A stretch of 64,000 nt of DNA from Eledone cirrhosa (lineage: Eukaryota): assembly GCA_964016885.1 (NCBI GenBank), contig OZ024742.1, forward strand, positions 376,278,001 through 376,342,000. The letters run 5' to 3'. Made by a program: the position numbers and the translations under genes. A model generated the notes under the pieces. It searched no databases and was not told the origin of the DNA. It worked only from the letters and a program-made list of their open reading frames with translations. Position 1 is the stretch's first letter; every line of letters begins with the position of its first letter. Positions 1 through 64,000 of this stretch are shown piece after piece.

Positions 1-3000
1 TCCTTCTCACCCTACAATAATATACTTGTAACCCCTAATTCTGTACCTACTTCACCTACAATAATATACCTGTAACCCCTAATTTTGTACCTTCTTACCC
101 TACAATAATATACCTGTAACCCCTAATTCTGTTCCTTCTCACCTTACAATAATATACCAGTAACCCCTAATTCTATACCTTCTCCCACTACAATAATATA
201 CCTGTAACCCCTAATTCTGTTCCTTCTCATCCTACAATAATATACTTGTAACCCCTAATTCTGTACCTACTTCCCCTACAATAATATACCTGTAACCCCT
301 GATTTTGTACCTTCTCACCCTACAATAATATACCTGTAACCCCTAATTCTGTTCCTTCTTACCCTACAATAATATACCTGTAACCCCTAACTCTGTACCT
401 TCTCCCGCTACAATAATATACCTGTAACCCTTAATTCTGTACCTTCTCCCACTACAATAATATACCTGTAATCCCTAATGCTGTTCCTTCTCACCCTACA
501 ATAATATACTTGTAACCCCTAATTCTGTTCCTTCTTACCCTACAATAATCTACCTGTAATCCCTAATTCTGTTCCTTCTTACCCAACAATAATATACCTG
601 TAACCCCTAATTCTGTTCCTTCTCACCCTATAATAATATACCTGTAACCCCTAATTCTGATCGTTCTCACCATACAATAATATACCTGTAACCCCTAATT
701 CTGTTCCTTCTTACCCTACAATAATATACCTGTAATCCCTATTTCTGTTCCTTCTTACCCTACAATAATATGCTTGTAACCCCTAATTCTGTACCCTCTT
801 ACCATACTAATAATATATCTGTAACCCTTAATTCTGTTCCTTACCCTACAATAATATACCTGTAACCCCTAATTCTGTTCCTTCCCACCTTACAGTAATA
901 TACATGAAACCCCTAATTCTGTTCCTTCTCACCTTACAATAATATACCTGTAACCCCTAATTCTGTACCTTCTTATCCTACTATAATATACCTGTAACAC
1001 TAAGTCTGTACCTTCTCCCGCTACAATAATATACCTGTAACCCCTAATTCTATACCTTCTCCCACTACAATAATATACCTGTAACCCCTAATTCTGTTCC
1101 TTCTCACCCTACAATAATATACTTGTAACCCCTAATTCTGTACCTACTTCCCCTACAATAATATACCTGTAACCCCTAATTTTGTACCTTCTTACCCTAC
1201 AATAATATACCTGTAACCCCTAATTCTGTACCTTCTCACCCTACAATAATATACCTGTAACCCCTAATTCTGTTCCTTCTTACCCTACAATAATATACCT
1301 GTAACCCCTAACTCTGTACCTTCTCCCGCTACAATAATATACCTGTAACCCCTAATTCTGTACCTTCTCCCACTACAATAATATACTTGTAACCCCTAAT
1401 TCTGTACCTACTTCCCCTACAATAACATACCGGTAACCCCTAATTCTGTACCCTCTCACCTTACAGTAATATACCTGTAACCCCTAATTCTGTGCCTTCT
1501 CACCTTACAATAATATACCTAAAACCCCTAATTCTGTTCCTTCTCACCTTACAATAATATACCAGTAACCCCTAATTCTATACCTTCTCCCACTACAATA
1601 ATATACCTGTAACCCCTAATTCTGTTCCTTCTCACCCTACAATAATATACTTGTAACCCCTACTTCTGTACCTACTTCCCCTACAATAATATACCTGTAA
1701 CCCCTAATTTTGTACCTTCTCACCCTACAATAATATACCTGTAACCCCTAATTCTGTTCCTTCTTACCCTACAATAATATACCTGTAACCCCTAACTCTG
1801 TACCTTCTCCCGCTACAATAATATACCTGTAACCCTTAATTCTGTACCTTCTCCCACTACAATAATATACCTGTAACCCCTAATTCTGTTCGTTCTCACC
1901 TTACAATAATATACCTGTAACCCCTAATTCTGTACCTTCTTATCCTACTATAATATACCTGTAACCCGTAAGTCTGTACCTTCTCCCGCTACAAAAATAT
2001 ACCTGTAACCCCTAATTCTGTACCTTCTTACCCTACAATAATATACCTGTAACCCCTAATTCTGTTCCTTCTCACCCTACAATAATATACCTGTAACCCC
2101 TAATTCTGTACCTTCTTGCTCTACAATAATATACCTGTAACCCCTAATTCTGTTCCTTCTCACCCTACAATAATATACCTGTAACCCCTAATTCTGTTCC
2201 TTCTTACTCTACAATAATATACCTGTAACCCCTAATTCTGTTCCTTCTCACCCTACAATAATATACCTGTAACCCCTAAATCTGTACCTTACTCTACAAT
2301 AATATACCTGTAACCCCTAATTCTGTACCTTCTCACCCTACAATAATATACCTGTAACCCCTAATTCTGTACCTTACTCTACAATAATATACCCGTAAGC
2401 CCTAATTCTGTACCTTCTCACCCTACAATAATATACCTGTAACCCCTAATTCTGTACCTTCTCACCCTAAAATAATATACCTGTAACCCCTAATTCTGTA
2501 CCTTCTCACCCTACATTAATATACCTGTAACCCCTAATTCTGTACCCTCTTACCCTACAATAATATACCTGTAACCCCTAATTCTGTAACTTCTTACTCT
2601 ACAATAATATACCTGTAACCCCTAATTCTGTTCCTTCTCACCCTACAATAATATACCTGTAACCCCTAATTCTGTTCCTTCTTACTCTACAATAATATAC
2701 CTGTAACCCCTAATACTGTTCCTTCTCACCCTACAATAATATACCTGTAACCCCTAATTCTGTACCTTCTGACCCTACAATAATATACCTGTAACCCATA
2801 ATTCTGTACCTTACTCTACAATAATATACCTGTAACCCCTAATTCTGTACCTTCTCACCCTACAATAATATACCTGTAACCCCTAATTCTGTTCCTTCTC
2901 ACCCTACAATAATATACCTGTAACCTCTAATTCTGTACCTTCTCACCCTACAAAAATATACCTGTAACCCCTAATTCTGTACCTTCTCACCCTACAATAA

Positions 3001-6000
3001 TATACCTGTAACCCCTAATTCTGTTCCTTCTCACCCTACAATAATATACCTGTAACCCCTAATTCTGTACCTTCTCACCCTACAATAATATACCTGTAAC
3101 CCCTAATTCTGTTCCTTCTCATCCTACAATAATATAGCTGTACCCCCTAATTCTGTCACTTCTTACTCTACAATAATATACTTGTAACCCCTAATTCTGT
3201 ACCCTCTCACCCTACAATAATATACCTGTAACCCCTAATTCTGTACCTTCTCACCCTACAATAATATACCTGTAACCCCTAATTCTGTACCTTCTCATCC
3301 TACATTAATATACCTGTAACCCCTAATTCTGTACCTTATTACCCTACAATAATATACCTGTAACCCCTAATTCTGTACCTTCTCACCCTACAATAATATA
3401 CCTGTAACCCCTAATTCTGTTCCTTCTCACCCTACAATAATATACCTGTAACCCCTAATTCTATTCCCTCTTACCCTACAATATATACCTGTAACCCCTA
3501 ATTCTGTACCTTCTTACCCTACAATAATATACCTGTAACCCCTAATTCTGTTCCTTCTCACCCTACAATAATATACCTGTAACCCCTAATTCTGTACCTT
3601 CTCACCCTACAATAATATACCTGTAACCCCTAATTCTGTACCTTCTCATCCTACATTAATATACCTGTAACCCCTAATTCTGTACCTTATTACCCTACAA
3701 TAATATACCTGTAACCCCTAATTCTGTTCCTTCTCACCCTACAATAATATACCTGTAACCCCTAATTCTGTACCTTCTCACCCTACAATAATATACCTGT
3801 AACCCCTAATTCTGTTCCTTCTCACCCTACAATAATATACCTGTACCCCTAATTCTGTTCCTTCTTACCCTACAATATATACCTGTAACCCCTAATTCTG
3901 TACCTTCTTACCCTACAATAATATACCTGTAACCCCTAATTCTGTTCCTTCTCACCCTACAATAATATACCTGTAACCCCTAATTCTGTTCCTTCTTACC
4001 CTACAATAATATACCTGTAACCCCTAACTCTGTTCCTTCTCCCGCTACAATAATATACCTGTAACCCTTAATTCTGTACCTTCTCTCACTACAATAATAT
4101 ACCTGTAATCCCTAATGCTGTTCCTTCTCACCCTACAATAATATACTTGTAACCCCTAATTCTGTTCCTTCTTACCCTACAATAATCTACCTGTAATCCC
4201 TAATTCTGTTCCTTCTTACCCAACAATAATATACCTGTAACCCCTAATTCTGTTCCTTCTCACCCTATAATAATATACCTGTAACCCCTAATTCTGATCG
4301 TTCTCACCTTACAATAATATACCTGTAACCCCTAATTCTGTTCCTTCTTACCCTACAATAATATACCTGTAATCCCTAATTCTGTAGCTTCACACCCTAC
4401 AATAATATACCTGTAACCCCTAATTCTGTTCCTTCTTACACTACAATAATATACCTGTAATCCCTATTTCTGTTCCTTCTTACCCTACGATAATATACCT
4501 GTAACCCCTAATTCTGTTCCTTCTCACCTTACAATAATATACCTGAAACCCCTAATTCTGTTCCTTCTCACCTTACAATAATATACCTGTAACCCCTAAT
4601 TCTGTACCTTCTTATCCTACTATAATATACCTGTAACCCCTAATTCTGTACCTTCTTATCCTACTATAATATACCTGTAACCCCTAACTCTGTACCTTCT
4701 CCCGCTACAATAATATACCTGTAACCCTTAATTCTCTACCTTCTCCCACTACAATAATATACCTGTAACCCCTAATTCTGTTCCTTCTCACCCTACAATA
4801 ATATACTTGTAACCCCTAATTCTGTTCCTTCTTACCCTACAATAATCTACCTGTAATCCCTAATTCTGTTCCTTCTTACCCAACAATAATATACATGTAA
4901 CCCCTAATTCTGTACCTTCTCACCTTACAATAATATACCTGTAACCCCTAATTCTGTTCCTTCTTACCTTACAATAATATACCTGTAACCCCTAATTCTG
5001 TTCCTTCTTACCCTACAATAATATACCTGTAACCCCTAATTCTGTACCTGCTCACCCTACAATAATATACCTGTAACCCCTAATTCTGTTCCTTCTCACC
5101 TTACAATAATATACCTGTAACCCCTAATTCTGTTCCCTCTCACCTTACAATAATATACCTGTAAACCCTATTTCTGTACCTGCTGACCGTACAATAATAT
5201 ACCTGTAACCCCTAATTCTGTTCCTTCGTACCCTACGATAATATACCTGTAACCCCTAATTCTGTAGCTTCACACCCTACAATAATATACCTGTAACCCC
5301 TAATTCTGTTCCTTCTTACACTACAATAATATACCTGTAATCCTTAATTCTATTCCTTCTTACCCTACAATAATATACTTGTAACCCCTAATTCTGTACC
5401 CTCTTACCATACAGTAATATACCTGTAACCCCTAATTCTGTACCTTCTCACCCTACAATAATATACCTGTAACCCCTAATTCTGTACCTTCTCACCCTAA
5501 AATAATATACCTGTAACCCCTAATTCTGTACCTTCTCACCCTACATTAATATACCTGTAACCCCTAATTCTGTACCTTCTTACCCTACAATAATATACCT
5601 GTAACCCCTAATTCTGTAACTTCTTACTCTACAATAATATACCTGTAACCCCTAATTCTGTTCCTTCTCACCCTACAATAATATACCTGTAACCCCTAAT
5701 TCTGTTCCTTCTTACTCTACAATAATATACCTGTAACCCCTAATACTGTTCCTTCTCACCCTACAATAATATACCTGTAACCCCTAATTCTGTACCTTCT
5801 GACCCTACAATAATATACCTGTAACCCCTAATTCTGTACCTTACTCTACAATAATATACCTGTAACCCCTAATTCTGTACCTTCTCACCCTACAATAATA
5901 TACCTGTAACCCCTAATTCTGTTCCTTCTCACCCTACAATAATATACCTGTAACCTCTAATTCTGTACCTTCTCACCCTACAATAATATACCTGTAACCC

Positions 6001-9000
6001 CTAATTCTGTACCTTCTCACCCTACAATAATATACCTGTAATCCCTAATTCTGTTCCTTCTTACCCAACAATAATATACCTGTAACCCCTAATTCTGTTC
6101 CTTCTCACCCTATAATAATATACCTATAACCCCTAATTCTGATCGTTCTCACCTTACAATAATATACCTGTAACCCCTAATTCTGTTCCTTCTTACCCTA
6201 CAATAATATACCTGTAATCCCTAATTCTGTAGCTTCACACCCTACAATAATATACCTGTAACCCCTAATTCTGTTCCTTCTTACACTACAATAATATACC
6301 TGTAATCCCTATTTCTGTTCCTTCTCACCTTACAATAATATACCTGAAACCCCTAATTCTGTTCCTTCTCACCTTACAATAATATACCTGTAACCCCTAA
6401 TTCTGTACCTTCTTATCCTACTATAATATACCTGTAACCCCTAATTCTGTACCTTCTTATCCTACTATAATATACCTGTAACCCCTAACTCTGTACCTTC
6501 TCCCGCTACAATAATATACCTGTAACCCTTAATTCTCTACCTTCTCCCACTACAATAATATACCTGTAACCCCTAATTCTGTTCCTTCTCACCCTACAAT
6601 AATATACTTGTAACCCCTAATTCTGTTCCTTCTTACCCTACAATAATCTACCTGTAATCCCTAATTCTGTTCCTTCTCACCCTACAATAATATACTTGTA
6701 ACCCCTAATTCTGTTCCTTCTTACCCTACAATAATCTACCTGTAATCCCTAATTCTGTTCCTTCTTACTCAACAATAATATACATGTAACCCCTAATTCT
6801 GTACCTTCTCACCTTACAATAATATACCTGTAACCCCTAATTCTGTTCCTTCTTACCTTACAATAATATACCTGTAACCCCTAATTCTGTTCCTTCTTAC
6901 CCTACAATAATATACCTGTAACCCCTAATTCTGTACCTGCTCACCCTACAATAATATACCTGTAACCCCTAATTCTGTTCCTTCTCACCTTACAATAATA
7001 TACCTGTAACCCCTAATTCTGTTCCCTCTCACCTTACAATAATATACCTGTAAACCCTATTTCTGTACCTGCTGACCGTACAATAATATACCTGTAACCC
7101 CTAATTCTGTTCCTTCGTACCCTACGATAATATACCTGTAACCCCTAATTCTGTAGCTTCACACCCTACAATAATATACCTGTAACCCCTAATTCTGTTC
7201 CTTCTTACACTACAATAATATACCTGTAATCCTTAATTCTATTCCTTCTTACCCTACAATAATATACTTGTAACCCCTAATTCTGTACCTTACTCTACAA
7301 TAATATACCTGTAACCCCTAATTCTGTACCTTCTCACCCTACAATAATATACCTGTAACCCCTAATTCTGTTCCTTCTCACCCTACAATAATATACCTGT
7401 AACTCCTAATTCTGTAACTTCTTACTCTACAATAATATACCTGTAACCCCTAATTCTGTTCCTTCTCACCCTACAATAATATACCTGTAACCCCTAATTC
7501 TGTTCCTTCTTACTCTACAATAATATACATGTAACCCCTAATACTGTTCCTTCTCACCCTACAATAATATACCTGTAACCCCTAATTCTGTACCTTCTGA
7601 CCCTACAATAATATACCTGTAACCCCTAATTCTGTACCTTACTCTACAATAATATACCTGTAACCCCTAATTCTGTACCTTCTCACCCTACAATAATATA
7701 CCTGTAACCCCTAATTCTGTTCCTTCTCACCCTACAATAATATACCTGTAACCTCTAATTCTGTACCTTCTCACCCTACAATAATATACCTGTAACCCCT
7801 AATTCTGTACCTTCTCACCCTACAATAATATACCTGTAACCCCTAATTCTGTTCCTTCTCACCCTACAATAATATACCTGTAACCCCTAATTCTGTACCT
7901 TCGCACCCTACAAAAATATACCTGTAACCCCTAATTCTGTTCCTTCTCACCTTACAATAATATACCTGTAACCCCTAATTCTGTTCCTTCTTACCCTACA
8001 ATAATATACCTGTAACCCCTAATTCTGTACCTGCTCACCCTACAATAATATACCTGTAACCCCTAATTCTGTTCCTTCTCACCTTACAATAATATACCTG
8101 TAACCCCTAATTCTGTTCCCTGTCACCTTACAATAATATACCTGTAAACCCTATTTCTGTACCTGCTGACCGTACAATAATATACCTGTAAACCCTAATT
8201 CTGTTCCTTCGTACCCTACGATAATATACCTGTAACCCCTAATTCTGTAGCTTCACACCCTACAATAATATACCTGTAACCCCTAATTCTGTTCCTTCTT
8301 ACACTACAATAATATACCTGTAATCCCTAATTCTATTCCTTCTTACCCTACAATAATATACTTGTAACCCCTAATTCTGTACCCTCTTACCATACAGTAA
8401 TATACCTGTAACCCCTAATTCTGTACCTTCTCACCCTACAATAATATACCTGTAACCCCTAATTCTGTACCTTCTCACCCTAAAATAATATACCTGTAAC
8501 CCCTAATTCTGTACCTTCTCACCCTACATTAATATACCTGTAACCCCTAATTCTGTACCTTCTTACCCTACAATAATATACCTGTAACCCCTAATTCTGT
8601 AACTTCTTACTCTACAATAATATACCTGTAACCCCTAATTCTGTTCCTTCTCACCCTACAATAATATACCTGTAACCCCTAATTCTGTTCCTTCTTACTC
8701 TACAATAATATACCTGTAACCCCTAATACTGTTCCTTCTCACCCTACAATAATATACCTGTAACCCCTAATTCTGTACCTTCTGACCCTACAATAATATA
8801 CCTGTAACCCCTAATTCTGTACCTTACTCTACAATAATATACCTGTAACCCCTAATTCTGTACCTTCTCACCCTACAATAATATACCTGTAACCCCTAAT
8901 TCTGTTCCTTCTCACCCTACAATAATATACCTGTAACCTCTAATTCTGTACCTTCTCACCCTACAATAATATACCTGTAACCCCTAATTCTGTACCTTCT

Positions 9001-12000
9001 CACCCTACAATAATATACCTGTAACCCCTAATTCTGTTCCTTCTCACCCTACAATAATATACCTGTAACCCCTAATTCTGTACCTTCTCACCCTACAATA
9101 ATATACCTGTAACCCCTAATTCTGTTCCTTCTCACCCTACAATAATATACCTGTACCCCCTAATTCTGTCACTTCTTACTCTACAATAATATACCTGTAA
9201 CCCCTAATTCTGTACCCTCTCACCCTACAATAATATACCTGTAACCCCTAATTCTGTACCTTCTCACCCTACAATAATATACCTGTAACCCCTAATTCTG
9301 TACCTTCTCACCCTACAATAATATACCTGTAACCCCTAATTCTGTACCTTCTCATCTTACATTAATATACCTGTAACCCCTAATTCTGTACCTTATTACC
9401 CTACAATAATATACCTGTAACCCCTAATTCTGTACCTTCTCACCCTACAATAATATACCTGTAACCCCTAATTCTGTTCCTTCTCACCCTACAATAATAT
9501 ACCTGTAACCCCTAATTCTGTTCCTTCTTACCCTACAATATATACCTGTAACCCCTAATTCTGTACCTTCTTACCCTACAATAATATACCTGTAACCCCT
9601 AACTCTGTACCTTCTCCCGCTACAATAATATACCTGTAACCCTTAATTCTGTACCTTCTCCCACTACAATAATATACCTGTAATCCCTAATGCTGTTCCT
9701 TCTCACCCTACAATAATATACTTGTAACCCCTAATTCTGTTCCTTCTTACCCTACAATAATCTACCTGTAATCCCTAATTCTGTTCCTTCTTACCCAACA
9801 ATAATATACCTGTAACCCCTAATTCTGTTCCTTCTCACCCTATAATAATATACCTGTAACCCCTAATTCTGATCGTTCTCACCTTACAATAATATACCTG
9901 TAACCCCTAATTCTGTTCCTTCTTACCCTACAATAATATACCTGTAATCCCTAATTCTGTAGCTTCACACCCTACAATAATATACCTGTAACCCCTAATT
10001 CTGTTCCTTCTTACACTACAATAATATACCTGTAATCCCTATTTCTGTTCCTTCTTACCCTACGATAATATACCTGTAACCCCTAATTCTGTTCCTTCTC
10101 ACCTTAAAATAATATACCTGAAACCCCTAATTCTGTTCCTTCTCACCTTACAATAATATACCTGTAACCCCTAATTCTGTACCTTCTTATCCTACTATAA
10201 TATACCTGTAACCCCTAATTCTGTACCTTCTTATCCTACTATAATATACCTGTAACCCCTAACTCTGTACCTTCTCCCGCTACAATAATATACCTGTAAC
10301 CCTTAATTCTCTACCTTCTCCCACTACAATAATATACCTGTAACCCCTAATTCTGTTCCTTCTCACCCTACAATAATATACTTGTAACCCCTAATTCTGT
10401 TCCTTCTTACCCTACAATAATCTACCTGTAATCCCTAATTCTGTTCCTTCTTACCCAACAATAATATACATGTAACCCCTAATTCTGTACCTTCTCACCT
10501 TACAATAATATACCTGTAACCCCTAATTCTGTTCCTTCTTACCTTACAATAATATACCTGTAACCCCTAATTCTGTTCCTTCTTACCCTACAATAATATA
10601 CCTGTAACCCCTAATTCTGTACCTGCTCACCCTACAATAATATACCTGTAACCCCTAATTCTGTTCCTTCTCACCTTACAATAATATACCTGTAACCCCT
10701 AATTCTGTTCCCTCTCACCTTACAATAATATACCTGTAAACCCTAATTCTGTACCTGCTGACAGTACAATAATATACCTGTAACCCCTAATTCTGTTCCT
10801 TCGTACCCTACGATAATATACCTGTAACCCCTAATTCTGTAGCTTCACACCCTACAATAATATACCTGTAACCCCTAATTCTGTTCCTTCTTACACTACA
10901 ATAATATACCTGTAATCCCTAATTCTATTCCTTCTTACCCTACAATAATATACTTGTAACCCCTAATTCTGTACCCTCTTACCATACAGTAATATACCTG
11001 TAACCCCTAATTCTGTTCCTTCTCACCTTACAATAATATACCTGTAACCCCTAATTCTGTACCTTCTTATCCTACTATAATATACCTATAACCCCTAACT
11101 CTGTACCTTCTCCCGCTACAATAATATACCCGTAACCCCTAATTCTATACCTTCTCCCACTACAATAATATACCTGTAACCCCTAATTCTGTTCCTTCTC
11201 ACCCTACAATAATATACTTGTAACCCCTAATTCTGTACCTACTTCCCCTACAATAATATACCTGTAACCCCTAATTTTGTACCTTTTCACCCTACAATAA
11301 TATACCTGTAACCTCTTATTCTGTTCCTTCTTACCCTACAATAATATACCTGTAACCCCTAATTCTGTACCTTCTCAACCTACAATAATCTACCTGTAAC
11401 CCCTAATTCTGTACCTTCTCACCCTACAATAATATACCTGTAACCCCTAATTCTGTTCCTTCTTACCCTACAATAATATACCTGTAACCCCTAACTCTGT
11501 ACCTTCTCCCGCTACAATAATATACCTGTAACCCCTAATTCTGTACCTTCTCCCACTACAATAATATACCTGTAACCCCTAATTCTGTACCCTCTTACCC
11601 TACAATAATATACCTGTAACCCCTAATTCTGTTCCCTCTCACCTTACAATAATATACCTGTAAACCCTAATTCTGTACCTGCTGACCGTACAATAATATA
11701 CCTGTAACCCCTAATTCTGTTCCTTCGTACCCTACGATAATATACCTGTAACCCCTAATTCTGTCGCTTCACACCCTACAATAATATACCTGTAACCCCT
11801 AATTCTGTTCCTTCTTACACTACAATAATATACCTGTAATCCCTAATTCTATTCCTTCTTACCCTACAATAATATACTTGTAACCCCTAATTCTGTACCC
11901 TCTTACCATACAGTAATATACCTGTAACCCCTAATTCTGTTCCTTCTCACCTTACAATAATATACCTGTAACCCCTAATTCTGTACCTTCTTATCCTACT

Positions 12001-54000: not shown

Positions 54001-57000
54001 CCCCTAATTCTGTTCCTTCTTACTCTACAATAATATACCTGTAACACCTAATACTGTTCCTTCTCACCCTACAATAATATACCTGTAACCCCTAATTCTG
54101 TACCTTCTCACCCTACAATAATATACCTGTAACCCCTAATTCTGTACCTTACTCTACAATAATATACCTGTAACCCCTAATTCTGTACCTTCTCACCCTA
54201 CAATAATATACCTGTAACCCCTAATTCTGTTCCTTCTCACCCTACAATAATATACCTGTAACCTCTAATTCTATACCTTCTCACCCTACAATAATATACC
54301 TGTAACCCCTAATTCTGTTCCTTCTCACCCTACAATAATATACCTGTAACCCCTAATTCTGTACCTTCTCACCCTACAATAATATACCTGTAACCCCTAA
54401 TTCTGTTCCTTCTCACCCTACAATAATATACCTGTACCCCCTAATTCTGTCACTTCTTACTCTACAATAATATACCTGTAACCCCTAATTCTGTACCCTC
54501 TCACCCTACAATAATATACCTGTAACCCCTAATTCTGTACCTTCTCACCCTACAATAATATACCTGTAACCCCTAATTCTGTACCTTCTCACCCTACAAT
54601 AATATACCTGTAACCCCTAATTCTGTACCTTCTCATCCTACATTAATATACCTGTAACCCCTAATTCTGTACCTTATTACCCTACAATAATATACCTGTA
54701 ACCCCTAATTCTGTACCTTCTCACCCTACAATAATATACCTGTAACCCCTAATTCTGTTCCTTCTCACCCTACAATAATATACCTGTAACCCCTAATTCT
54801 GTACCTTCTTACCCTACAATAATATACCTGTAACCCCTAATTCTGTTCCTTCTCACCCTACAATAATATACCTGTAACCCCTAATTCTGTACCTTCTTAC
54901 TCTACAATAATATACCTGTAACCCCTAATTCTGTTCCTTCTCACCCTACAATAATATACCTGTAACCCCTAATTCTGTTCCTTCTTACTCTACAATAATA
55001 TACCTGTAACCCCTAATTCTGTTCCTTCTTACCCTACAATAATATAACTGTAACCCCTAATTCTCTACCTTCTTACCCTACAATAATATACCTGTAACCC
55101 GTAATTCCGTTCCTTCTCACCCTACAATAATATACCTGTAACCCCTAATTCTGTACCTTCTTACCCTACAATAATATACCTGTAACCCCTAATTCTGTTC
55201 CTTCTCACCCTACAATAATATACCTGTAACCCCTAATTCTGTACCTTCTTGCTCTACAATAATATACCTGTAACCCCTAATTCTGTTCCTTCTCACCCTA
55301 CAATAATATACCTGTAACCCCTAATTCTGTTCCTTCTTACTCTACAATAATATACCTGTAACCCCTAATTCTGTTCCTTCTCACCCTACAATAATATACC
55401 TGTAACCCCTAATTCTGTACCTTACTCTACAATAATATACCTGTAACCCCTAATTCTGTACCTTCTCACCCTACAATAATATACCTGTAACCCCTAATTC
55501 TGTACCTTACTCTACAATAATATACCTGTAAGCCCTAATTCTGTACCTTCTCACCCTACAATAATATACCTGTAACCCCTAATTCTGTACCTTCTCACCC
55601 TAAAATAATATACCTGTAACCCCTAATTCTGTACCTTCTCACCCTACATTAATATACCTGTAACCCCCAATTCTGTACCTTCTTACCCTACAATAATATA
55701 CCTGTAACCCCTAATTCTGTACCTTCTCACCCTACAATAATATACCTGTAACCCCTAATTCTGTTCCTTCTCACCCTACAATAATATACCTGTAACCCCT
55801 AATTCTGTTCCTTCTTACTCTACAATAACATACCTGTAACCCCTAATACTGTTCCTTCTCACCCTACAATAATATACCTGTAACCCCTAATTCTGTACCT
55901 TACTCTACAATAATATACCTGTAACCCCTAATTCTGTACCTTCTCACCCTACAATAATATACCTGTAACCCCTAATTCGGTTCCTTCTCACCCTACAATA
56001 ATATACCTGTAACCTCTAATTCTGTACCTTCTCACCCTACAATAATATACCTGTAACCCCTAATTCTGTACCTTCTCACCCTACAATAATATACCTGTAA
56101 CCCCTAATTCTGTTCCTTCTCACCCTACAATAATATACCTGTAACCCCTAATTCTGTACCATCTCACCCTACAATAATATACCTGTAACCCCTAATTCTG
56201 TTCCTTCTCACCCTACAATAATATACCTGTAACCCCTAATTCTGTACCTTCTCACCCTACAATAATATACCTGTAACCCCTAATTCTGTACCCTCTCACC
56301 CTACAATAATATACCTGTAACCCCTAATTCTGTACCATCTCACCCTACAATAATATACCTGTAACTCCTAATTCTGTTCCTTCTCACCCTACAATAATAT
56401 ACCTGTACCCCCTAATTCTGTCACTTCTTACTCTACAATAATATACCTGTAACCCCTAATTCTGTACCCTCTCACCCTACAATAATATACCTGTAACCCC
56501 TAATTCTGTACCTTCTCACCCTACAATAATATACCTGTAACCCCTAATTCTGTACCTTCTCACCCTAAAATAATATACCTGTAACCCCTAATTCTGTTCC
56601 TTCTCACCCTACAATAATATACCTGTAACCCCTAATTCTGTTCCTTCTTACCCTACAATATATACCTGTAACCCCTAATTCTGTACCTTCTTACCCTACA
56701 ATAATATACCTGTAACCCTTAATTCTGTTCCTTCTCACCCTACAATAATATACCTGTAACCCCTAATTCTGTACCTTCTTACTCTACAATAATATACCTG
56801 TAACCCCTAATTCTGTTCCTTCTCACCCTACAATAATATACCTGTAACCCCTAATTCTGTTCCTTCTTACTCTACAATAATATACCTGTAACCCCTAATT
56901 CTGTTCCTTCTCACCCTACAATAATATACCTGTAACCCCTAATTCTGTTCCTTCTCACCCTACAATAATATACCTGTAACCCCTAATTCTGTACCTTCTC

Positions 57001-57995
57001 ACCCTACAATAATATACCTGTAACCCCTAATTCTGTTCCTTCTTACTCTACAATAATATACCTGTAACCCCTAATTCTGTTCCTTCTCACCCTACAATAA
57101 TATACCTGTAACCCCTAATTCTGTTCCTTCTCACCCTACAATAATATACCTGTAACCCCTAATTCTGTTTCTTCTCACCCTACAATAATATACCTGTAAC
57201 CCCTAATTCTGTACCTTCTCAACCTACATTAATATACCTGTAACCCCTAATTCTGTTCCTTCTCACCCTACAATAATATACCTGTAACCCCTAATTCTGT
57301 ACCTTCTCACCCTACAATAATATACCTGTAACCCCTAATTCTGTTCCTTCTCACCCTACAATAATATACCTGTAACCCCTAATTCTGTACCTTCTCACCC
57401 TACATTAATATACCTGTAACCCCTAATTCTGTTCCTTCTCACCCTACAATAATATACCTGTAACCCCTAATTCTGTACCTTCTCACCCTACAATAATATA
57501 CCTGTAACCCCTAATTCTGTACCTTCTCACCCTACAATAATATACCTGTAACCCCTAATTCTGTACCTTCTCACCCTACAATAATATACCTGTAACCCCT
57601 AATTCTGTTCCTTCTCACCCTACAATAATATACCTGTAACCCCTAATTCTGTACCTTCTCACCCTACATTAATATACCTGTAACCCCTAATTCTGTTCCT
57701 TCTCACCCTACAATAATATACCTGTAACCCCTAATTCTGTACCTTCTCACCCTACATTAATATACCTGTAACCCCTAATTCTGTTCCTTCTCACCCTACA
57801 ATAATATACCTGTAACCCCTAATTCTGTACCTTCTCACCCTACAATAATATACCTGTAACCCCTAATTCTGTTCCTTCTCACCCTACAATAATATACCTG
57901 TAACCCCTAATTCTGTTCCTTCTCACCCTACAATAATATACCTGTAACCCCTAATTCTGTACCTTCTCACCCTACAATAATATAGCTGTAACCCC
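1..57995. repeat. Tandem satellite array, 44-bp monomer, ~1,320 copies, left end outside window
   Basis: Consensus CCTGTAACCCCTAATTCTGT(A/T)CCTTCT(C/T)ACCCTACAATAATATA repeats head-to-tail in one orientation. Recurrent 41-bp (GTACCTTACTCT) and 43-bp (CAATATATACC) deletion variants. The last partial unit is TATAGCTGTAACCCC at 57981-57995. Copy number is length/44. Confidence 0.99.
27150..46800. repeat. Higher-order repeat in the 44-bp satellite: ~4 copies of a 4,727-bp unit (2,103 + 2,624 bp subunits), one copy with an extra 827 bp
   Basis: Marker ACCGGT at 27831, 29934, 32558, 34661, 37285, 39388, 42839, 44942. Alternate spacings are 4727 four times, then 5554 twice. Marker CCAGAC at 31714, 36441, 41995 gives 4727 and 5554. 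Outer boundaries approximate. Confidence 0.9.
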
Positions 57996-58013
57996 CTTTT
58001 CTCTCTATTACAG

Positions 58014-58133
58014 TTCAAACAGCAGCTTGCGTTCCAAGCTGTCATTGACCCGTCCCATGTGAAGAATCGACACGTTCTCAATGACACATATGGTATACAA
58101 CTGCCCCTTATTTCAGAGAAAAGACATTCCAGA
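58014..58133 (+). CDS. Internal coding exon A (120 nt, phase 0/0) of an unidentified gene: FKQQLAFQAVIDPSHVKNRHVLNDTYGIQLPLISEKRHSR
   Basis: Preceded by CCCCCTTTTCTCTCTATTACAG (pyrimidine tract + CAG at 58011-58013) and followed by GTAAGT at 58134. Length is 40 codons. Only frame 0 is open; the other two + frames hit TGA. Sequence is unique and GC-richer than the downstream flank. Confidence 0.8.
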
Positions 58134-58443
58134 GTAAGTGACCGTTCAGTTTTTATACATTAATATCATGGATTAAACGAGGAGTGGGTAGTGGTGGTTG
58201 GAAAATCAGTAATTTTTCTAAGTTGTCTCCCTTGATATTTTAAAAAACTAGAATTATTCGTTTAGTTTACATATTGAGACCCCAACACATCCTATTTATT
58301 CTATAACATATGGGATTTCTAGTAATGTACTTTTTGTTGTCATATATAATCTTTTTAATGTATAAAGAAAATTAATTGTTACAGGAATGCGACCACTTAA
58401 AATAAAACCTTGCCAGAGACAGACTAGCAAAATTAGATAATAA

Positions 58444-58534
58444 GGAGGGTGGGGTGTAATAAGAACGTGGGTGGGGCAGAGCTGGGAAAAAAATCTGAAA
58501 AATTAATAATTGGAGGGCGGGGGGGGGGGGGGGG
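58444..58534 (+). other. G-rich tract with several G runs and a G16 homopolymer (G-quadruplex-prone)
   Basis: GGAGGGTGGGG...GTGGGTGGGGCAGAGCTGGG, then GGAGGGC followed by 16 G at 58519-58534. Confidence 0.55.
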
Positions 58535-58572
58535 TGATTTTCAGAGAATATTTCATTAAGATGAAAAAAAAT

Positions 58573-58610
58573 AGAAAAGAGAAATACTTATATAAGTACT
58601 TCTCTTTTCT
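58573..58610. repeat. 38-bp near-perfect palindrome
   Basis: AGAAAAGAGAAATACTTAT|ATAAGTACTTCTCTTTTCT. 18 of 19 pairs are complementary about the centre 58591/58592; the one mismatch is A58584/C58599. Confidence 0.85.
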
Positions 58611-58864
58611 TATTAAATTTTGCTAATCTGTCTCCAACAAAGTTTTATTTTAAGTGGTAGCATTTCTGCAAAGGAGCAGAAGATAGCCAAATACTGGGAC
58701 TTATTATTGTGTACAGTGCTCAGGTGCACTACAACTCATCAAAGGTGCATGTATAGTACATAGAATAATATACAAATGTCAGGAAAGTGAACAGTGTATG
58801 AGTCATGATATACATGTGTGTATGGAGGGGAATATTAGGTGTAGTGTTGGCGAATCTCAGGAAG

Positions 58865-59417
58865 CATGGAGGTTTTAAAGGATGCAGTGTCTCGACAGCT
58901 AACAACTGATGCAGGCAGTTTGTTCCATGGAGGTTTTAAAGGATGCAGTGTCTCGACAGCTAACAACTGATGCAGGCAGTTTGTTCCATGGAGGTTTTAA
59001 AGGATGCAGTGTCTCGACAGCTAACAACTGATGCAGGTAGTTTGTTCCATGGAGGTTTTAAAGGATGCAGTGTCTCGACAGCTAACAACTGATGCAGGTA
59101 GTTTGTTCCATGGAGGTTTTAAAGGATGCAGTGTCTCGACAGCTAACAACTGATGCAGGCAGTTTGTTCCATGGAGGTTTTAAAGGATGCAGTGTCTCGA
59201 CAGCTAACAACTGATGCAGGCAGTTTGTTCCATGGAGGTTTTAAAGGATGCAGTGTCTCGACAGCTAACAACTGATGCAGGCAGTTTGTTCCATGGAGGT
59301 TTTAAAGGATGCAGTGTCTCGACAGCTAACAACTGATGCAGGCAGTTTGTTCCATGGAGGTTTCAAAGGATGCAGTGTCTCGACAGCTAACAACTGATGC
59401 AGGCAGTTTGTTCCATG
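58865..59417. repeat. 61-bp minisatellite, 9 copies, inside the LINE ORF2 3' end
   Basis: Unit CATGGAGGTTTTAAAGGATGCAGTGTCTCGACAGCTAACAACTGATGCAGGCAGTTTGTTC starts at 58865, 58926, ... 59353, with a final CATG at 59414-59417. Copies 3 and 4 carry GGTAG; copy 9 carries TTTCAAAG. Confidence 0.97.
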
Positions 59418-59456
59418 CTTCAGCAACTCTGAGCGTGAAAAGAATGTTTCCGAAAG

Positions 59457-59768
59457 TCATGGGAGCTGTGCTGTTTTGTAGGCATGCCCTTGTGTGTTAA
59501 ACACATGGAATTCAAAAAGGTTCTCAGGGTTGTTGTTGGCAAGATTGTTAATAATTTTGTGGGTGTTTACCAAGTCAGTTGCCAGACGTCGGAGCTTCAA
59601 CGTATCCATGTCCAGAGAAGCAAGGTGTTCAGAGTATGGTAGATGTCTGATGGAGGGTATGCGCTTGGTTGCACGTCTCTGAACAGTTTCCAGGTGGTCA
59701 ATGTTCTGAGCAAGATAAGGGTTCCAGACTGGTGATGCAAATTCTAAGTGTGGCTGCACCATAGCCAT
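59457..59768 (-). pseudogene. Remnant of LINE ORF2 C-terminal region (supplied 103-aa ORF)
   Basis: CR1-like motifs PHLEFASPVWNP and LETVQRRATK. The premature stop results from a frameshift after GHAYK. No RT catalytic core or endonuclease domain is present. Confidence 0.85.
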
Positions 59769-60023
59769 GTACAGACTTGATCAACCATTTCTTTTTTGTG
59801 CTAGTTGCTGGCAACACCTCTTGTGCCCTCAATCTCTGCACTGACATTTTTGTCTGCAAAATTGGGGAAGGGGTCCATCTTACTCAAGGAAAGAGCCCCA
59901 TGAGGTGGAGTGGCTGATGCAGTGGGTAACCCTGGCTATTCTCTGTGACAGCTGTGCCCCACAAACATGATGGTGAAAGCACTAAGATATATTGCCAAGA
60001 CAGGGGTGTATAGTCTGCTGCTT

Positions 60024-60203
60024 TAATAATAATAATGAAATATTGTGTACAGTGCTCAGGTGCACTACAACTCATCAAAAAGTGTATGTATAGTACATAG
60101 GGTAATGCACAAACGTCAGGAAAATGAATACTGCATGAGTCATGATATACACATGTGTGCATGTGTATGGAAGGGGTACATCAGGTGTAGTTTTGGCAAA
60201 TTT
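60024..60203 (-). mobile_element. Second short 3'-end fragment of the same LINE family, with (ATT)n tail
   Basis: TATTGTGTACAGTGCTCAGGTGCACTACAACTCATCAAA at 60041 matches 58705 onward, and similarity continues with substitutions through AGGTGTAGT(G/T)TTGGC. The minus strand ends ...ATTTCATTATTATTATTA, a microsatellite tail typical of CR1/L2 elements. Confidence 0.85.
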
Positions 60204-60353
60204 TCTTCTCCTCTCCACTTTATTTTCATTATTATTTTATTGCAAACATATATAATGTAATAGAAATATGTTGAATAATCCTGCATATTTCTATTTAAGC
60301 TGAAGGTTTCATTCTTTAAAAAGTAATCCCAATTGCACTTTCTATTTGTTAAG

Positions 60354-60446
60354 ACGTCATCTGCTGGTTTAAGCCATAAAGTAGTTGTAGGCAGTACCAT
60401 TGAACCTCTTGCCAGTCTTCCCAAACAGAACCGTGTTGATCCATCG
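60354..60446 (+). CDS. Internal coding exon B (93 nt, phase 0/0): TSSAGLSHKVVVGSTIEPLASLPKQNRVDPS
   Basis: Acceptor CACTTTCTATTTGTTAAG ends at 60353; donor TCG|GTAAGT at 60447. It has 31 open codons and is phase-compatible with exon A. The acceptor is weaker than that of exon A. Confidence 0.65.
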
Positions 60447-60559
60447 GTAAGTGAGCAGCTATAATTTCTATACTCACAAATGATAGTTTCTTTTTAACAT
60501 AGACACAATGTCACCAATTTGGGAGATAGGGGAAAGTTGTTTTTAATGGCCCTAATACT

Positions 60560-60720
60560 TTAACCCTTTAGCATTTAAACCAGCTGTATCCGGCCAGAAT
60601 ATCGCACCTCTTTTTGCTCAAACTGGCTGTAACTGGCCACTCATACTGATGTTAAGGTATTGTTCTCAAAATAAGTAATATTAAAATCTCATAGATTCAA
60701 TATTATGTGTAATATTATGT
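60560..60720 (+). mobile_element. Left end of a putative non-autonomous DNA transposon (MITE) with a piggyBac-like TTAA|CCCT terminus
   Basis: TTAA at 60560-60563 is followed by CCCTTTAGCATTTAAACCAGCTGTATCCGGCC. A TTAA target plus a CCC-starting TIR is the piggyBac signature. It resembles an abundant octopus interspersed repeat as I recall it (unverified). The right end is not in the window. Confidence 0.55.
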
Positions 60721-63700
60721 GAGATAAAGCCTTTATAGTGAAAATACAATAGTATAGAGTAATGTAAATGTTATGTGAGATAAAGCCTTTACAGTGAAAA
60801 TACAATAGTATAGAGTAATGTAAATGATATGTGAGATAAAGCCTTTACAGTGAAAATACAATAGTATAGAGTAATGTAAATGTTATGTGAGATAAAGCCT
60901 TTACAGTGAAAATACAATAGTATAGAGTAATGTAAATGTTATGTGTGATATTATGTGTGATAAAGCCTTTACAGTGAAAATACAATAGTATAGAGTAATG
61001 TAAATGTTATGTGAGATAAAGCCTTTACAGTGAAAATACAATAGTATAGAGTAATGTAAATGCTATGTGAGATAAAGCCTTTACAGTGAAAATACAATAG
61101 TATAGAGTAATGTAAATATTATGTGAGATAAAGCCTTTACAGTAAAAATACAATAGTATAGAGTAATGTAAATGTCATGTGAGATAAAGCCTTTACAGTG
61201 AAAATACAATAGTATAGAGTAATGTAAATGTTATGTGAGATAAAGCCTTTACAGTGAAAATACAATAGTATAGAGTAATGTAAAAGCTATGTAAGATAAA
61301 GCCTTTACAGTGAAGATACAATAGTATAGAGTAATGTAAATGTTATGTGTAATATTATGTGAGATAAAGCCTTTACAGTGAAAATACAATAGTATAGAGT
61401 AATGTATATGTTATGTGAGATAAAGCCTTTACAGTGAAAGTACAATAGTATAGAGTAATGTAAATGTTATGTGAGATAAAGCCTTTACAGTGAAAATACA
61501 ATAGTATAGAGTAATGTAAATGTTATGTGAGATAAAGCCTTTACAGTGAAAATACAATAGTATAGAGTAATGTAAATGTTATGTGAGATAAAGCCTTTAC
61601 AGTAAAAAATACAATAGTATAGAGTAATGTAAATGTTATGTGAGATAAAGCCTTTACAGTGAAAATACAATAGTATAGAGTAATGTAAATGTTATGTGTA
61701 ATATTATGTGGGATAAAGCGTTTACAGTGAAGATACAATAGTATAGAGTAATGTAAATGTTATGTGTAATATTATGTGAGATAAAGCCTTTACAGTGAAA
61801 ATACAATAGTATAGAGTAATGTAAATGTTATGTGAGATAAAGCCTTTACAGTAAAAATACAATAGTATAGAGTAATGTAAATGTTATGTGAGATAAAGCC
61901 TTTACAGTGAAAATACAATAATATAGAGTAATGTAAATGTTATGTGTAATATTATGTGAGATAAAGCCTTTACAGTGAAAGTACAATAGTATAGAGTAAT
62001 GTAAATGTTATGTGAGATAAAGCCTTTACAGTGAAAATACAATAGTATAGAGTACTGTAAATGTTATGTGAGATAAAGCCTTTACAGTGAAAATACAATA
62101 GTATATAGAAAAGTTAATGTTATGTGTAATATTGTGTGAGATAAAGCCTTTACAGTGAAAGTACAATAGTATAGAGTAATGTAAATGTTATGTGAGATAA
62201 AGCATTTACAGTGAAAATACACTAGTATAGAGTAATGTAAATGCTATGTGAGATAAAGCCTTTACAGTGAAAATACAGTAGTATAGAGTAATGTAAATGT
62301 TATGTGAGATAAAGCCTTTACAGTGAAAATACAATAGTATAGAGTAATGTAAATGTTATGTGAGATAAAGCCTTCACAGTGAAAATACAATAGTATAGAG
62401 TAATGTAAATGTTATGTGAGATAAAGCCTTTACAGTGAAAATGCAATAGTATAGAGTAACGTAAATGTTAGGTGAGATAAAGCCTTTACAGTGAAAATAC
62501 AATAGTATAGAGTAATGTAAATGTTATATGAGATAAAGCCTTTACAGTGAAAATACAATAGTATAGAGTAATGTAAATGTTATGTGAGATAAAGCCTTTA
62601 CAGTGAAAATACAATAGTATAGAGTAATGTAAATGTTATGTGTAATATTATGTGAGATAAAGCCTTTTCAGTGAAAATACAATAGTATAGAGTAATGTAA
62701 ATGTTATGTGTAATATTATGTGAGGTAAAGCCTTTACAGTGAAAATACAATAGTATAGAGTAATGTAAATGTTATGTGAGATAAAGCCTTTACAGTGAAA
62801 ATACAATAGTATAGAGTAATGTAAATGTTATGTGAGATAAAGCCTTTACAGTGAAAATACAATAGTATAGAGTAACGTAAATGTTAGGTGAGATAAAGCC
62901 TTTACAGTGAAAATACAATAGTATAGAGTAATGTAAATGTTATGTGAGATAAAGCCTTTACAGTGAAAATACAATAGTATAGAGTAATCTAAATGTTATG
63001 TGAGATAAAGCCTTTACAGTGAAAATACAATAGTATAGAGTAACGTAAATGTTAGGTGAGATAAATCCTTTACAGTGAAAATACGATAGTATAGAGTAAT
63101 GTAAATGTTATGTGAGATAAAGCCTTTACAGTGAAAATACAATAGTATAGAGTAATGTAAATGTTATGTGAGATAAAGCCTTCACTGTGAAAATACAATA
63201 GTATAGAGTAATGTAAATGCTATGTGAGATAAAGCCTTTACAGTGAAAATACAATCGTATAGAATAATGTAAATGTTATGTGAGATAAAGCCTTTACAGT
63301 GAAAATACAATAGTATAGAGTAATGTAAATGCTATGTGAGATAAAGCCTTTACAGTGAAAATACAGTAGTATAGAGTAATGTATATGTTTGGTGAGATAA
63401 AGCCTTTACAGTGAAAATACAATAGTATAGAGTAATGTAAATGTTATGTGAGATAAAGCCTTTACAGTGAAAATACAATAGTATAGAGTAATGTAAGTGT
63501 TATGTGAGATAAAGCCTTTACAGTGAAAATACAATAGTATAGAGTAATGTAAATGTTATGTGAGATAAAGCCTTTACATTGAAGATACAATGGTATAGAG
63601 TAATGTAAATCTTAAGTGAGATAAAGCCTTTACAGTGAAAATACAATAGTATAGAGTAATGTAAATGTTATGTGAGATAAAGCCTTTACAGTGAAAATAC

Positions 63701-64000
63701 AATAGTATAGAGTAATGTAAATGTTATGTGAGATAAAGCCTTTACAGTGAAAATACAATAGTATAGAGTAATGTAAATGTTATGTGAGATAAAGCCTTTA
63801 CAGTGAAAATACAATAGTATAGAGTAATGTAAATGTTATGTGAGATAAAGCCTTTAGAGTGAAAATACAATAGTATAGAGTAATGTAAATGTTATGTGAG
63901 ATAAAGCCTTTACAGTGAAAATACAATAGTATAGAGTAATGTAAATGCTATGTAATATTATGTGAGATAAAGCCTTTACAGTGAAAATATAATAGTATAG
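60699..64000. repeat. Tandem satellite, 56-bp monomer with interspersed 68-bp variants, ~57-58 copies, right end outside window
   Basis: Consensus GAGATAAAGCCTTTACAGTGAAAATACAATAGTATAGAGTAATGTAAATGTTATGT, first full units at 60721 and 60777. Long variants insert GTAATATTATGT. Confidence 0.98.

What the first reader, a model, noticed from the sequence alone, without database searches (positions are those of the whole stretch)
1..64000. Small coding exons embedded between satellite arrays: a gene with a >=58-kb pure-satellite intron
Seen: two phase-0 exons with canonical AG and GTAAGT sites join in frame, and the supplied ORF track misses both. Exon A has an acceptor and no start codon, and its acceptor lies 18 nt from the end of the array. 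Inference: the array is an intron transcribed by Pol II, and the intron after exon B is also satellite-filled. Established analogy: satellite-filled giant introns of the Drosophila Y-loop fertility genes kl-3 and kl-5. I cannot name the protein.
Basis: partly seen in the sequence, partly recalled or inferred. Interest (0 to 1): 0.75.

Follow-up and report, generated by a model that had tools for sequence, protein, structure and literature searches.

The report
Octopod IQCH gene with stuttering introns
The two small exons belong to an intact 23-exon gene for the sperm protein IQCH in an octopus-type animal, stretched to 714,000 bases by tandem repeats that grew in place; this is likely tolerated runaway repeat growth in a repeat-rich region rather than a sperm-specific control device.

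Summary
Confirmed and named. The two exons are exons 5 and 6 of a single-locus, intact IQCH gene: 23 coding exons, 1,079 aa, 69.5% identical to Octopus bimaculoides IQCH, all introns GT-AG, spanning 714 kb. The intron before exon 5 is 91.6 kb, of which 79.5 kb is one uninterrupted 44-mer array, so it is not wholly pure. The intron after exon 6 is 286 kb (97% arrays). The arrays are local: all 414 exact genome hits of a 44-mer probe lie here; the 105-kb 56-mer grew inside one 229-bp MITE; exon 7's acceptor is copied 38 times and only the last copy keeps the frame. IQCH is a male-fertility gene in mammals, which suits the Y-loop analogy, but my controls point to a regional effect. Flanking DNA is as array-rich as the gene (12/20 vs 15/21 samples), a myosin-IX-like gene is built the same way, and dynein loci are compact in the domain tested. 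Closest known: avian 'sequence stuttering'; here larger, AT-rich and partly transposon-seeded. No RNA data were available, so transcription and splicing are inferred. The scan noted the same architecture earlier in other genes of this genome (unreviewed notes).

The parts
1..58013 (+). distal 58 kb of IQCH intron 4 (91,574 nt; it begins after exon 4, 33.6 kb left of the window; exons 1-3, the ATG and an X-box-like motif lie 63-122 kb left of the window)
1..57995 (+). 44-bp tandem array in intron 4 (continues 21.5 kb left of the window; 79.5 kb, about 1,814 units, no gap, no unique island); private to this locus
   Evidence: 414 of 414 genome hits of a 36-nt probe lie in this array
57985..58013 (+). 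3' end of intron 4: last satellite unit with the predicted branch A at 57991 (23 nt before the exon), an 18-nt non-satellite stretch with the pyrimidine tract, and CAG
   Evidence: sequence; branch point inferred from position only
58014..58133 (+). IQCH coding exon 5 (exon A), 40 codons, phase 0-0
58134..60353 (+). intron 5 (2,220 nt) with dispersed repeats and a 61-bp x 9 minisatellite at 58865-59417
60354..60446 (+). IQCH coding exon 6 (exon B), 31 codons, phase 0-0
60447..64000 (+). start of intron 6 (286,164 nt, to 346610 in extended numbering; holds 56-, 80- and 24-bp arrays and 38 copies of the exon 7 acceptor; exons 7-23 follow, ending at 592508)
60560..60710 (.). left end of a TTAA-bounded MITE with 17-bp terminal inverted repeats; its right end lies at 166179 in extended numbering (105,620 bp in all; dispersed copies about 229 bp)
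60711..64000 (+). 56-bp tandem array inside the MITE (continues to 166167; 105 kb)
   Evidence: 547 of 549 genome hits of a 41-nt junction probe lie here

Best explanation
The two exons are exons 5 and 6 of an intact IQCH gene whose introns hold separate, locally grown tandem arrays, and the gene is likely transcribed as one 714-kb unit with the arrays spliced out, the arrays being a likely tolerated by-product of runaway local repeat growth. Shown: gene identity, open frame, canonical splice sites, array sizes, local seeds, and equal array density inside and outside the gene. Inferred mechanism: a short 24-80 bp stretch (a MITE end, a dispersed repeat, an intron end or an exon edge) is duplicated, then grows by copying multi-kilobase blocks, probably through unequal exchange or repair. 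Selection would remove only expansions that break an exon, so exons persist as islands. Splicing is predicted to rely on exon definition: exon 5 would use a branch point in the last satellite unit, and exon 7 would have to use the last of its duplicated acceptors.
For: Identity. Model: 23 exons, 3,240 nt, no internal stop, 749 of 1,077 aligned residues identical, 22 of 22 introns GT-AG, 71% of intron bases in arrays of 2 kb or more. Privacy: 414/414 and 547/549 probe hits local. Seeds: the 56-mer lies between the inverted ends of a MITE with 14 distinct short copies seen, 13 of them 198-231 bp (18 rows, 4 duplicates from overlapping loci); the 80-mer has unamplified relatives 0.9 and 1.6 kb upstream; four 47-49-mers share a dispersed-repeat seed. 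Block growth: exact repeats of 0.5-4.5 kb at lags of mostly 1-5.5 kb, one at 38.6 kb. Regional, not gene-specific: 8-kb samples over 50% array are 15/21 in the gene, 12/20 in C3 370-378.8 Mb, 1/20 in interior C3. A myosin with an N-terminal RA domain spreads three collinear head exons over 314.5 kb, 12/20 samples array-filled. Dynein DHC_N2 gaps have median 1.2 kb, maximum 27 kb, 0 of 68 over 50 kb. The 44-mer is not purged of acceptors: 44 of 1,787 units carry a TACAG variant.
Against: No RNA evidence either way. Neutrality is inferred from controls, not measured. IQCH is testis-specific in mouse (PMC10112910, abstract) and has an X-box-like motif here, as a Y-loop-like gene might. 'Chromosome end' does not generalise: on 19 large contigs, 6/19 samples at 1.5 Mb and 6/19 at one third of the length were array-rich (p=1.0; only 2 of the latter 6 have units of 20 nt or more). 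Samples within one array are not independent. No TACAG variant lies in the last 13 kb before exon 5, which could reflect selection. Orthologous intron lengths could not be fetched. Array lengths rest on one assembly.
Confidence: 0.75

Rival explanations
1. Y-loop-like programme: the arrays were retained or co-opted because IQCH is a spermatocyte gene, and 714 kb of repeats delay or gate its expression and may form a lampbrush-like loop.
For: IQCH is testis-specific and needed for male fertility in mouse and human (PMC10112910, PMC11259432, abstracts). X-box-like palindrome 96 nt before the ATG, the only match in 233 loci (post hoc). IQCH is 662 bp per codon against a myosin median of 57.
Against: Flanking DNA is equally array-rich. 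A myosin-IX-like gene reaches 763 bp per profile position. Dynein heavy-chain loci, the family of kl-3 and kl-5 (recalled), are compact in the one domain tested. Units are mostly 24-80 bp and introns under 0.3 Mb, unlike Y-loop genes.
Confidence: 0.12
2. The gene is intact on paper but impaired or silenced: heterochromatic arrays, 44 cryptic acceptors in intron 4 and two out-of-frame upstream acceptors at exon 7 block useful expression.
For: The original exon 7 acceptor (345721 in extended numbering) and the second copy give +890 and +866 nt, out of frame with stops. A 19-aa segment of O. bimaculoides IQCH has no matching exon in intron 7.
Against: No stop or frameshift in 1,079 codons, all 44 splice sites canonical, 36 of 36 residues identical in the exon 20 match, all 19 protein matches at this one locus.
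Confidence: 0.06
3. Array sizes are partly assembly artefacts (over-expanded repeats), so the true introns are much shorter.
For: Exact internal duplications up to 4.5 kb, one at a 38.6-kb lag in the 24-mer array. No long read was seen.
Against: No N gap in 864 kb. Units are about 10% divergent with position-specific variants. Short-read contigs match variants inside the exon 7 array and bridge its last acceptor (one sample, possibly the assembly's own source).
Confidence: 0.07

Closest known systems
Avian 'sequence stuttering' of introns and exon edges on dot chromosomes (Hron et al. 2026, PMC12954441; sections 7 and 9 read whole, plus passages)
   Same: Locally born tandem clusters of tens-of-bases units, different in each intron, exons left intact, intergenic DNA affected too, and an exon edge with its splice acceptor copied into the neighbouring intron (exon 7, 38 copies; chicken 1-44 copies).
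   Different: Invertebrate; arrays up to 115 kb against exon-stutter spans of 0.1-23.6 kb (median 1.75 kb); the largest arrays are AT-rich (GC 27-37%) whereas the avian case is tied to GC-rich DNA; some seeds are interspersed repeats, which avian dot euchromatin lacks; sits on a 379-Mb contig; length polymorphism untested.
Intron gigantism of Drosophila Y-loop fertility genes kl-3, kl-5 (PMC6508621 abstract; PMC11207136 passages)
   Same: A male-fertility gene with tiny exons in repeat-filled giant introns; coding DNA is 0.45% of the span.
   Different: Largest introns 0.05-0.29 Mb, not megabases; 71% arrays, not over 99% simple satellite; private 24-80 bp units; not gene-specific here; no evidence of a loop, of dedicated RNA-binding proteins or of sex linkage.
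Tandem-repeat-containing MITEs such as DTC84 of the clam Donax trunculus (PMC3879986, abstract)
   Same: A non-autonomous element with short inverted ends acts as a cassette for an internal tandem repeat.
   Different: DTC84 holds up to five core repeats; this copy holds about 1,820 units (105.6 kb) between intact 17-bp ends, inside an intron. The TTAA ends suggest a piggyBac type (recalled, not tested).
IQCH (IQ motif-containing protein H), Pfam PF24923; O. bimaculoides XP_052828096.1
   Same: Collinear over the whole protein, 69.5% identical, ATP-grasp domain and IQ-like motif present.
   Different: Lacks a 19-aa segment of the O. bimaculoides isoforms; gene span of the orthologue unknown here.

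Membership tests
IQCH | IQCH-like ATP-grasp domain (PF24923) | tested here: met
   5 matches in the genome, all in this gene, best E 2.1e-30
IQCH | Full-length collinear orthology and intact frame | tested here: met
   23 exons, 1,079 aa, no stop, 69.5% identity; exons 5, 6, 7 give 72, 69 and 97 BLASTP rows against 100 IQCH homologues
IQCH | IQ calmodulin-binding motif | tested here: inconclusive
   Exon 12 aligns to the IQ-like segment of the homologues; no Pfam IQ scan of this exon and no binding test
IQCH | Testis-specific expression | not testable with these tools
   No RNA holder listed
Drosophila Y-loop intron gigantism | Megabase introns | tested here: not met
   Largest intron 286 kb
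Drosophila Y-loop intron gigantism | Simple satellite making up over 99% of the locus | tested here: not met
   71% in arrays of 2 kb or more, units mostly 24-80 bp
Drosophila Y-loop intron gigantism | Restricted to a few fertility genes | tested here: not met
   Flanks and a myosin-IX-like gene match it; dynein loci compact in one domain
Drosophila Y-loop intron gigantism | Transcription through the repeats in spermatocytes with dedicated RNA-binding proteins | not testable with these tools
   No RNA data
Avian sequence stuttering | Repeat clusters of local origin confined between intact exons | tested here: met
   Two probes private to their arrays; exons intact; other arrays not probed genome-wide
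Avian sequence stuttering | Exon edge with splice site copied into the adjacent intron | tested here: met
   Exon 7 acceptor, 38 copies, read directly. The BLAST screen is marginal: 34.2 bits (23 hits) against 32.2 in shuffled introns, below the paper's 42.1 cut-off, since only 17 exon nt are copied; exon 17 also had 2 hits of 34.2 bits in its intron, not followed up
Avian sequence stuttering | Extensive intron length variation between individuals | not testable with these tools
   Only one sample's short-read contigs were available
Avian sequence stuttering | GC-rich dot-chromosome setting devoid of interspersed repeats | tested here: not met
   Array GC 27-54%, the four largest 27-37%; MITEs and retroelements present; contig of 379 Mb
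MITE-borne tandem repeat | Terminal inverted repeats enclosing the array, with short dispersed copies | tested here: met
   17-bp perfect inverted ends at 60560 and 166179; 14 distinct short copies in the fetched DNA

The most novel reading that the evidence does not exclude
In this octopod the splice signals themselves are amplified into satellites (about 1,800 branch-point-like units before exon 5, 38 acceptor copies at exon 7), and the sperm gene IQCH has co-opted them: transcript length acts as a spermatocyte timer and the choice between the original out-of-frame acceptor and the last in-frame copy acts as a decay switch.
Probability: 0.1. Interest if true: 0.8.

Novelty: new variant of a known kind. 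Interest (0 to 1): 0.5.

Why it matters
It extends intron 'stuttering', described in print for birds and in passing gerbils (PMC12954441), to a mollusc at a much larger scale and in AT-rich DNA, which argues against GC content or quadruplexes as the necessary cause. The locus catches three seed types with their borders intact: a MITE interior, an exon edge and (inferred) an intron end. It also offers a natural test of the open question about gigantic introns, function or tolerated by-product: a fertility gene and a non-fertility gene of the same build in one genome. Practically, such genes are likely to be fragmented or missed in short-read cephalopod assemblies.

Tried and rejected
RNA: no RNA holder listed; the three runs behave as DNA of one sample and show no splice joint among the rows listed, which is no evidence on expression. 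Naming the exons: ESM Atlas, Pfam and word-indexed searches found nothing usable for exons A, B or 7; the full HMMER search did. The IQCH guess and the Pfam accessions used as queries came first from recall and were then confirmed by tool output. My first exon scorer was too strict and missed both exons; relaxed. Splice motifs as proof: rejected, P=0.28. 'Array purged of AG': rejected; the commonest A-to-G change creates TACAG (44 units), though three other AG-creating A-to-G changes are rare (1, 0, 0). Hidden exons in the islands between the intron 6 arrays: none found. Missing 19-aa exon in intron 7: no credible match. Neighbour genes: 150 of 443 candidate frames scanned, only retroelement domains and one weak stray hit; an AAGAB-family search rang nowhere and is uninformative; the kinase search gave no locus near this contig end. 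'All chromosome ends are array-rich': not supported. In the myosin comparison 2 single-match loci were dropped, and only first and last matches of 19 loci were used; 86 of 341 candidate frames were scanned for intermediate myosin exons. Dynein loci were not sorted into axonemal and cytoplasmic. No structure was predicted.
Full report
Observation. The window is G000:C3:376278001-376342000, about 2.6 Mb from the end of a 378.9-Mb contig. Coordinates below extend the window's numbering (genome position minus 376,278,000). A 44-bp array fills 2-57995 and a 56-bp array 60711-64000. Between them lie two stop-free phase 0-0 exons, 58014-58133 and 60354-60446, each with AG and GTAAGT. The motifs alone are weak evidence: two GTAAGT occur in 28% of 500 shuffles of the island.

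Identity. Exon A gave one hit among 1.84 billion proteins (E 1.2e-10, 79%): O. bimaculoides IQ domain-containing protein H, XP_052828096.1, with the IQCH ATP-grasp domain. That protein has 19 matches in the genome, all on the plus strand of this locus and in order (the tool used a stricter first look, so weak paralogues could be missed). The Pfam domain has 5 matches, all here. With 864 kb of gap-free DNA including the window and the longer isoform P0002, I built a model of 23 coding exons from -121584 to 592508: 3,240 nt, 1,079 aa, no internal stop, 749 of 1,077 aligned residues identical, 22 of 22 introns GT-AG (boundaries of exons 1-11 set by hand, the rest by alignment score). The animal is an octopod by this homology; I did not seek the species. 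In mouse, Iqch is testis-specific and its mutation causes male infertility (PMC10112910, abstract); a loss-of-function variant is reported in an infertile human family (PMC11259432, abstract). A palindrome matching the strict X-box consensus of PMC2375033 (passages) lies 96 nt before the ATG and is the only match in 233 loci. It was noticed post hoc, and that paper warns that an X-box alone is not predictive.

Introns. Intron 4 is 91,574 nt (90% arrays; the 44-mer spans -21511..57995). Intron 6 is 286,164 nt (97%), holding a 56-mer (60711-166167, 105 kb), an 80-mer (168986-224463, 55 kb) and a 24-mer (225693-341009, 115 kb). Introns 9, 13, 18 and 20 hold further arrays of 49, 53, 18 and 7 kb. 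In all, 71% of 710,853 intron bases lie in arrays of 2 kb or more. For scale, the median O. vulgaris intron is 2,467 bp (PMC10700109, one passage).

Origin of the arrays. All 414 genome hits of a 36-nt 44-mer probe, and 547 of 549 hits of a 41-nt 56-mer junction probe, are in these arrays. The 56-mer lies between 17-bp perfect inverted ends at 60560 and 166179; 14 distinct short copies of the same element were seen, 13 of them 198-231 bp. So one MITE grew to 105,620 bp from within. The 80-mer has unamplified relatives just upstream, four 47-49-mers share a common dispersed seed, and the 44-, 50- and large 24-mers had no hit elsewhere in the DNA searched. At exon 7 a 24-bp unit spanning the acceptor is repeated 38 times (345713-346627); three copies keep AG, and the first two add 890 and 866 nt, out of frame with stops, so only the last gives IQCH. 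Short-read contigs match variants in that array and bridge the last acceptor (one sample, perhaps the assembly's source). The 44-mer ends 18 nt before exon 5, so the branch point (usual distance recalled as about 18-40 nt) is predicted in the last unit. The array is not purged of acceptors: 44 of 1,787 parsed units carry TACAG, although none lies in the last 13 kb. Exact internal repeats of 0.5-4.5 kb at mostly multi-kilobase lags point to growth by block copying.

Is it special to a sperm gene? Counting 8-kb samples with over half their bases in arrays of 2 kb or more (unit 10 nt or more): IQCH 15/21, C3 370-378.8 Mb 12/20, interior C3 1/20; gene versus flank p=0.52, flank versus interior p=0.0004 (samples in one array are not independent). 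Near the other end of C3, a myosin with an N-terminal RA domain (class IX architecture, recalled) has three collinear head exons over 314.5 kb, 12/20 samples array-filled, 763 bp per profile position against a median of 57 for 19 myosin loci and 662 per codon for IQCH. In 19 dynein heavy-chain loci, 68 gaps in the DHC_N2 domain have median 1,156 bp and maximum 27 kb (one domain only, loci unclassified). Against my first reading, array-rich samples were as common at one third of 19 large contigs (6/19) as at 1.5 Mb from their starts (6/19), although only 2 of the former have units of 20 nt or more. So the effect is patchy and regional rather than simply terminal. Overall 25 of 78 samples outside the two genes were array-rich, mostly with unrelated units.

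Mechanism. Shown: identity, intact frame, array sizes, local seeds, regional density. Inferred: transcription of the whole 714 kb as one unit and removal of the arrays by splicing (as reported for the Drosophila genes, PMC11207136, passages); growth by unequal exchange or repair; neutrality. I put 0.75 on tolerated local stuttering, 0.12 on a Y-loop-like programme, 0.06 on an impaired gene and 0.07 on inflated assembly.

Known and new. The closest description is avian sequence stuttering (PMC12954441; abstract, sections 7 and 9, passages; supplements not read), to which earlier scan notes pointed me. It works like that process but fails its GC-rich, transposon-free setting, and polymorphism is untested, so I do not file it as a strict member. 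It fails three defining features of Y-loop gigantism (PMC6508621, abstract). Searches listed no paper on array-filled introns in cephalopods; only the listed rows were seen and the library lacks most subscription journals. Unreviewed scan notes report the same build for SRA1, LHPP, unc79, APLF, an ABCB pump and REXO5 in this genome; I did not test those genes. No note covers this locus. Verdict: real gene, new variant of a known kind, interest 0.5.

Noticed in passing
G000:C3:886075-1200575, minus strand (L195, L201:5279-5590, L214:5159-6013): Myosin gene with an N-terminal RA domain whose head exons are spread over at least 314 kb with 22-, 42-, 48-, 29-, 41- and 40-bp arrays between them.
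   Followed up: partly
window 58865-59417 and 498514-499859 (extended coordinates): The same 61-bp unit is expanded twice in this gene, 9 copies in intron 5 and 22 copies on the opposite strand in intron 16 (compared by eye from TRF consensus units).
   Followed up: no
extended coordinates -99999, 434210, 516157, 594323; L141, L227, L136: A family of 47-49-bp arrays that share one dispersed-repeat seed but were amplified separately, each with its own variant.
   Followed up: partly
extended coordinates 225693-341009: The 24-bp array holds a block duplication at a 38.6-kb lag with 4.5 kb of exact identity: very recent growth or an assembly duplication.
   Followed up: no
L103:8320-8332: Palindromic X-box-like motif 96 nt upstream of the IQCH start codon.
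   Followed up: partly
intron 7, extended coordinates 346792-361595: A 19-aa segment present in both O. bimaculoides isoforms has no matching exon here; exons 7 and 8 join in frame without it.
   Followed up: partly
G000:C19:6705821-6710174 (+) and 6806589-6811056 (-): Two dynein heavy-chain loci about 100 kb apart in opposite orientation with near-identical exon spacing: likely an inverted duplication.
   Followed up: no
L162/L157 (G000:C19 near 13.649 Mb) and L232: Other copies of the same MITE show short internal tandem expansions of the same end segment, possibly early stages of the 105-kb array.
   Followed up: no
L102:5628-9652; extended coordinates -47491..-46103 and -82733..-80484 (minus strand): An LTR-type retroelement (RT, RNase H, integrase domains) about 9-13 kb upstream of the ATG, and two long transposon-like frames (463 and 750 aa; type recalled, not tested) inside introns 3 and 2.
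   Followed up: no
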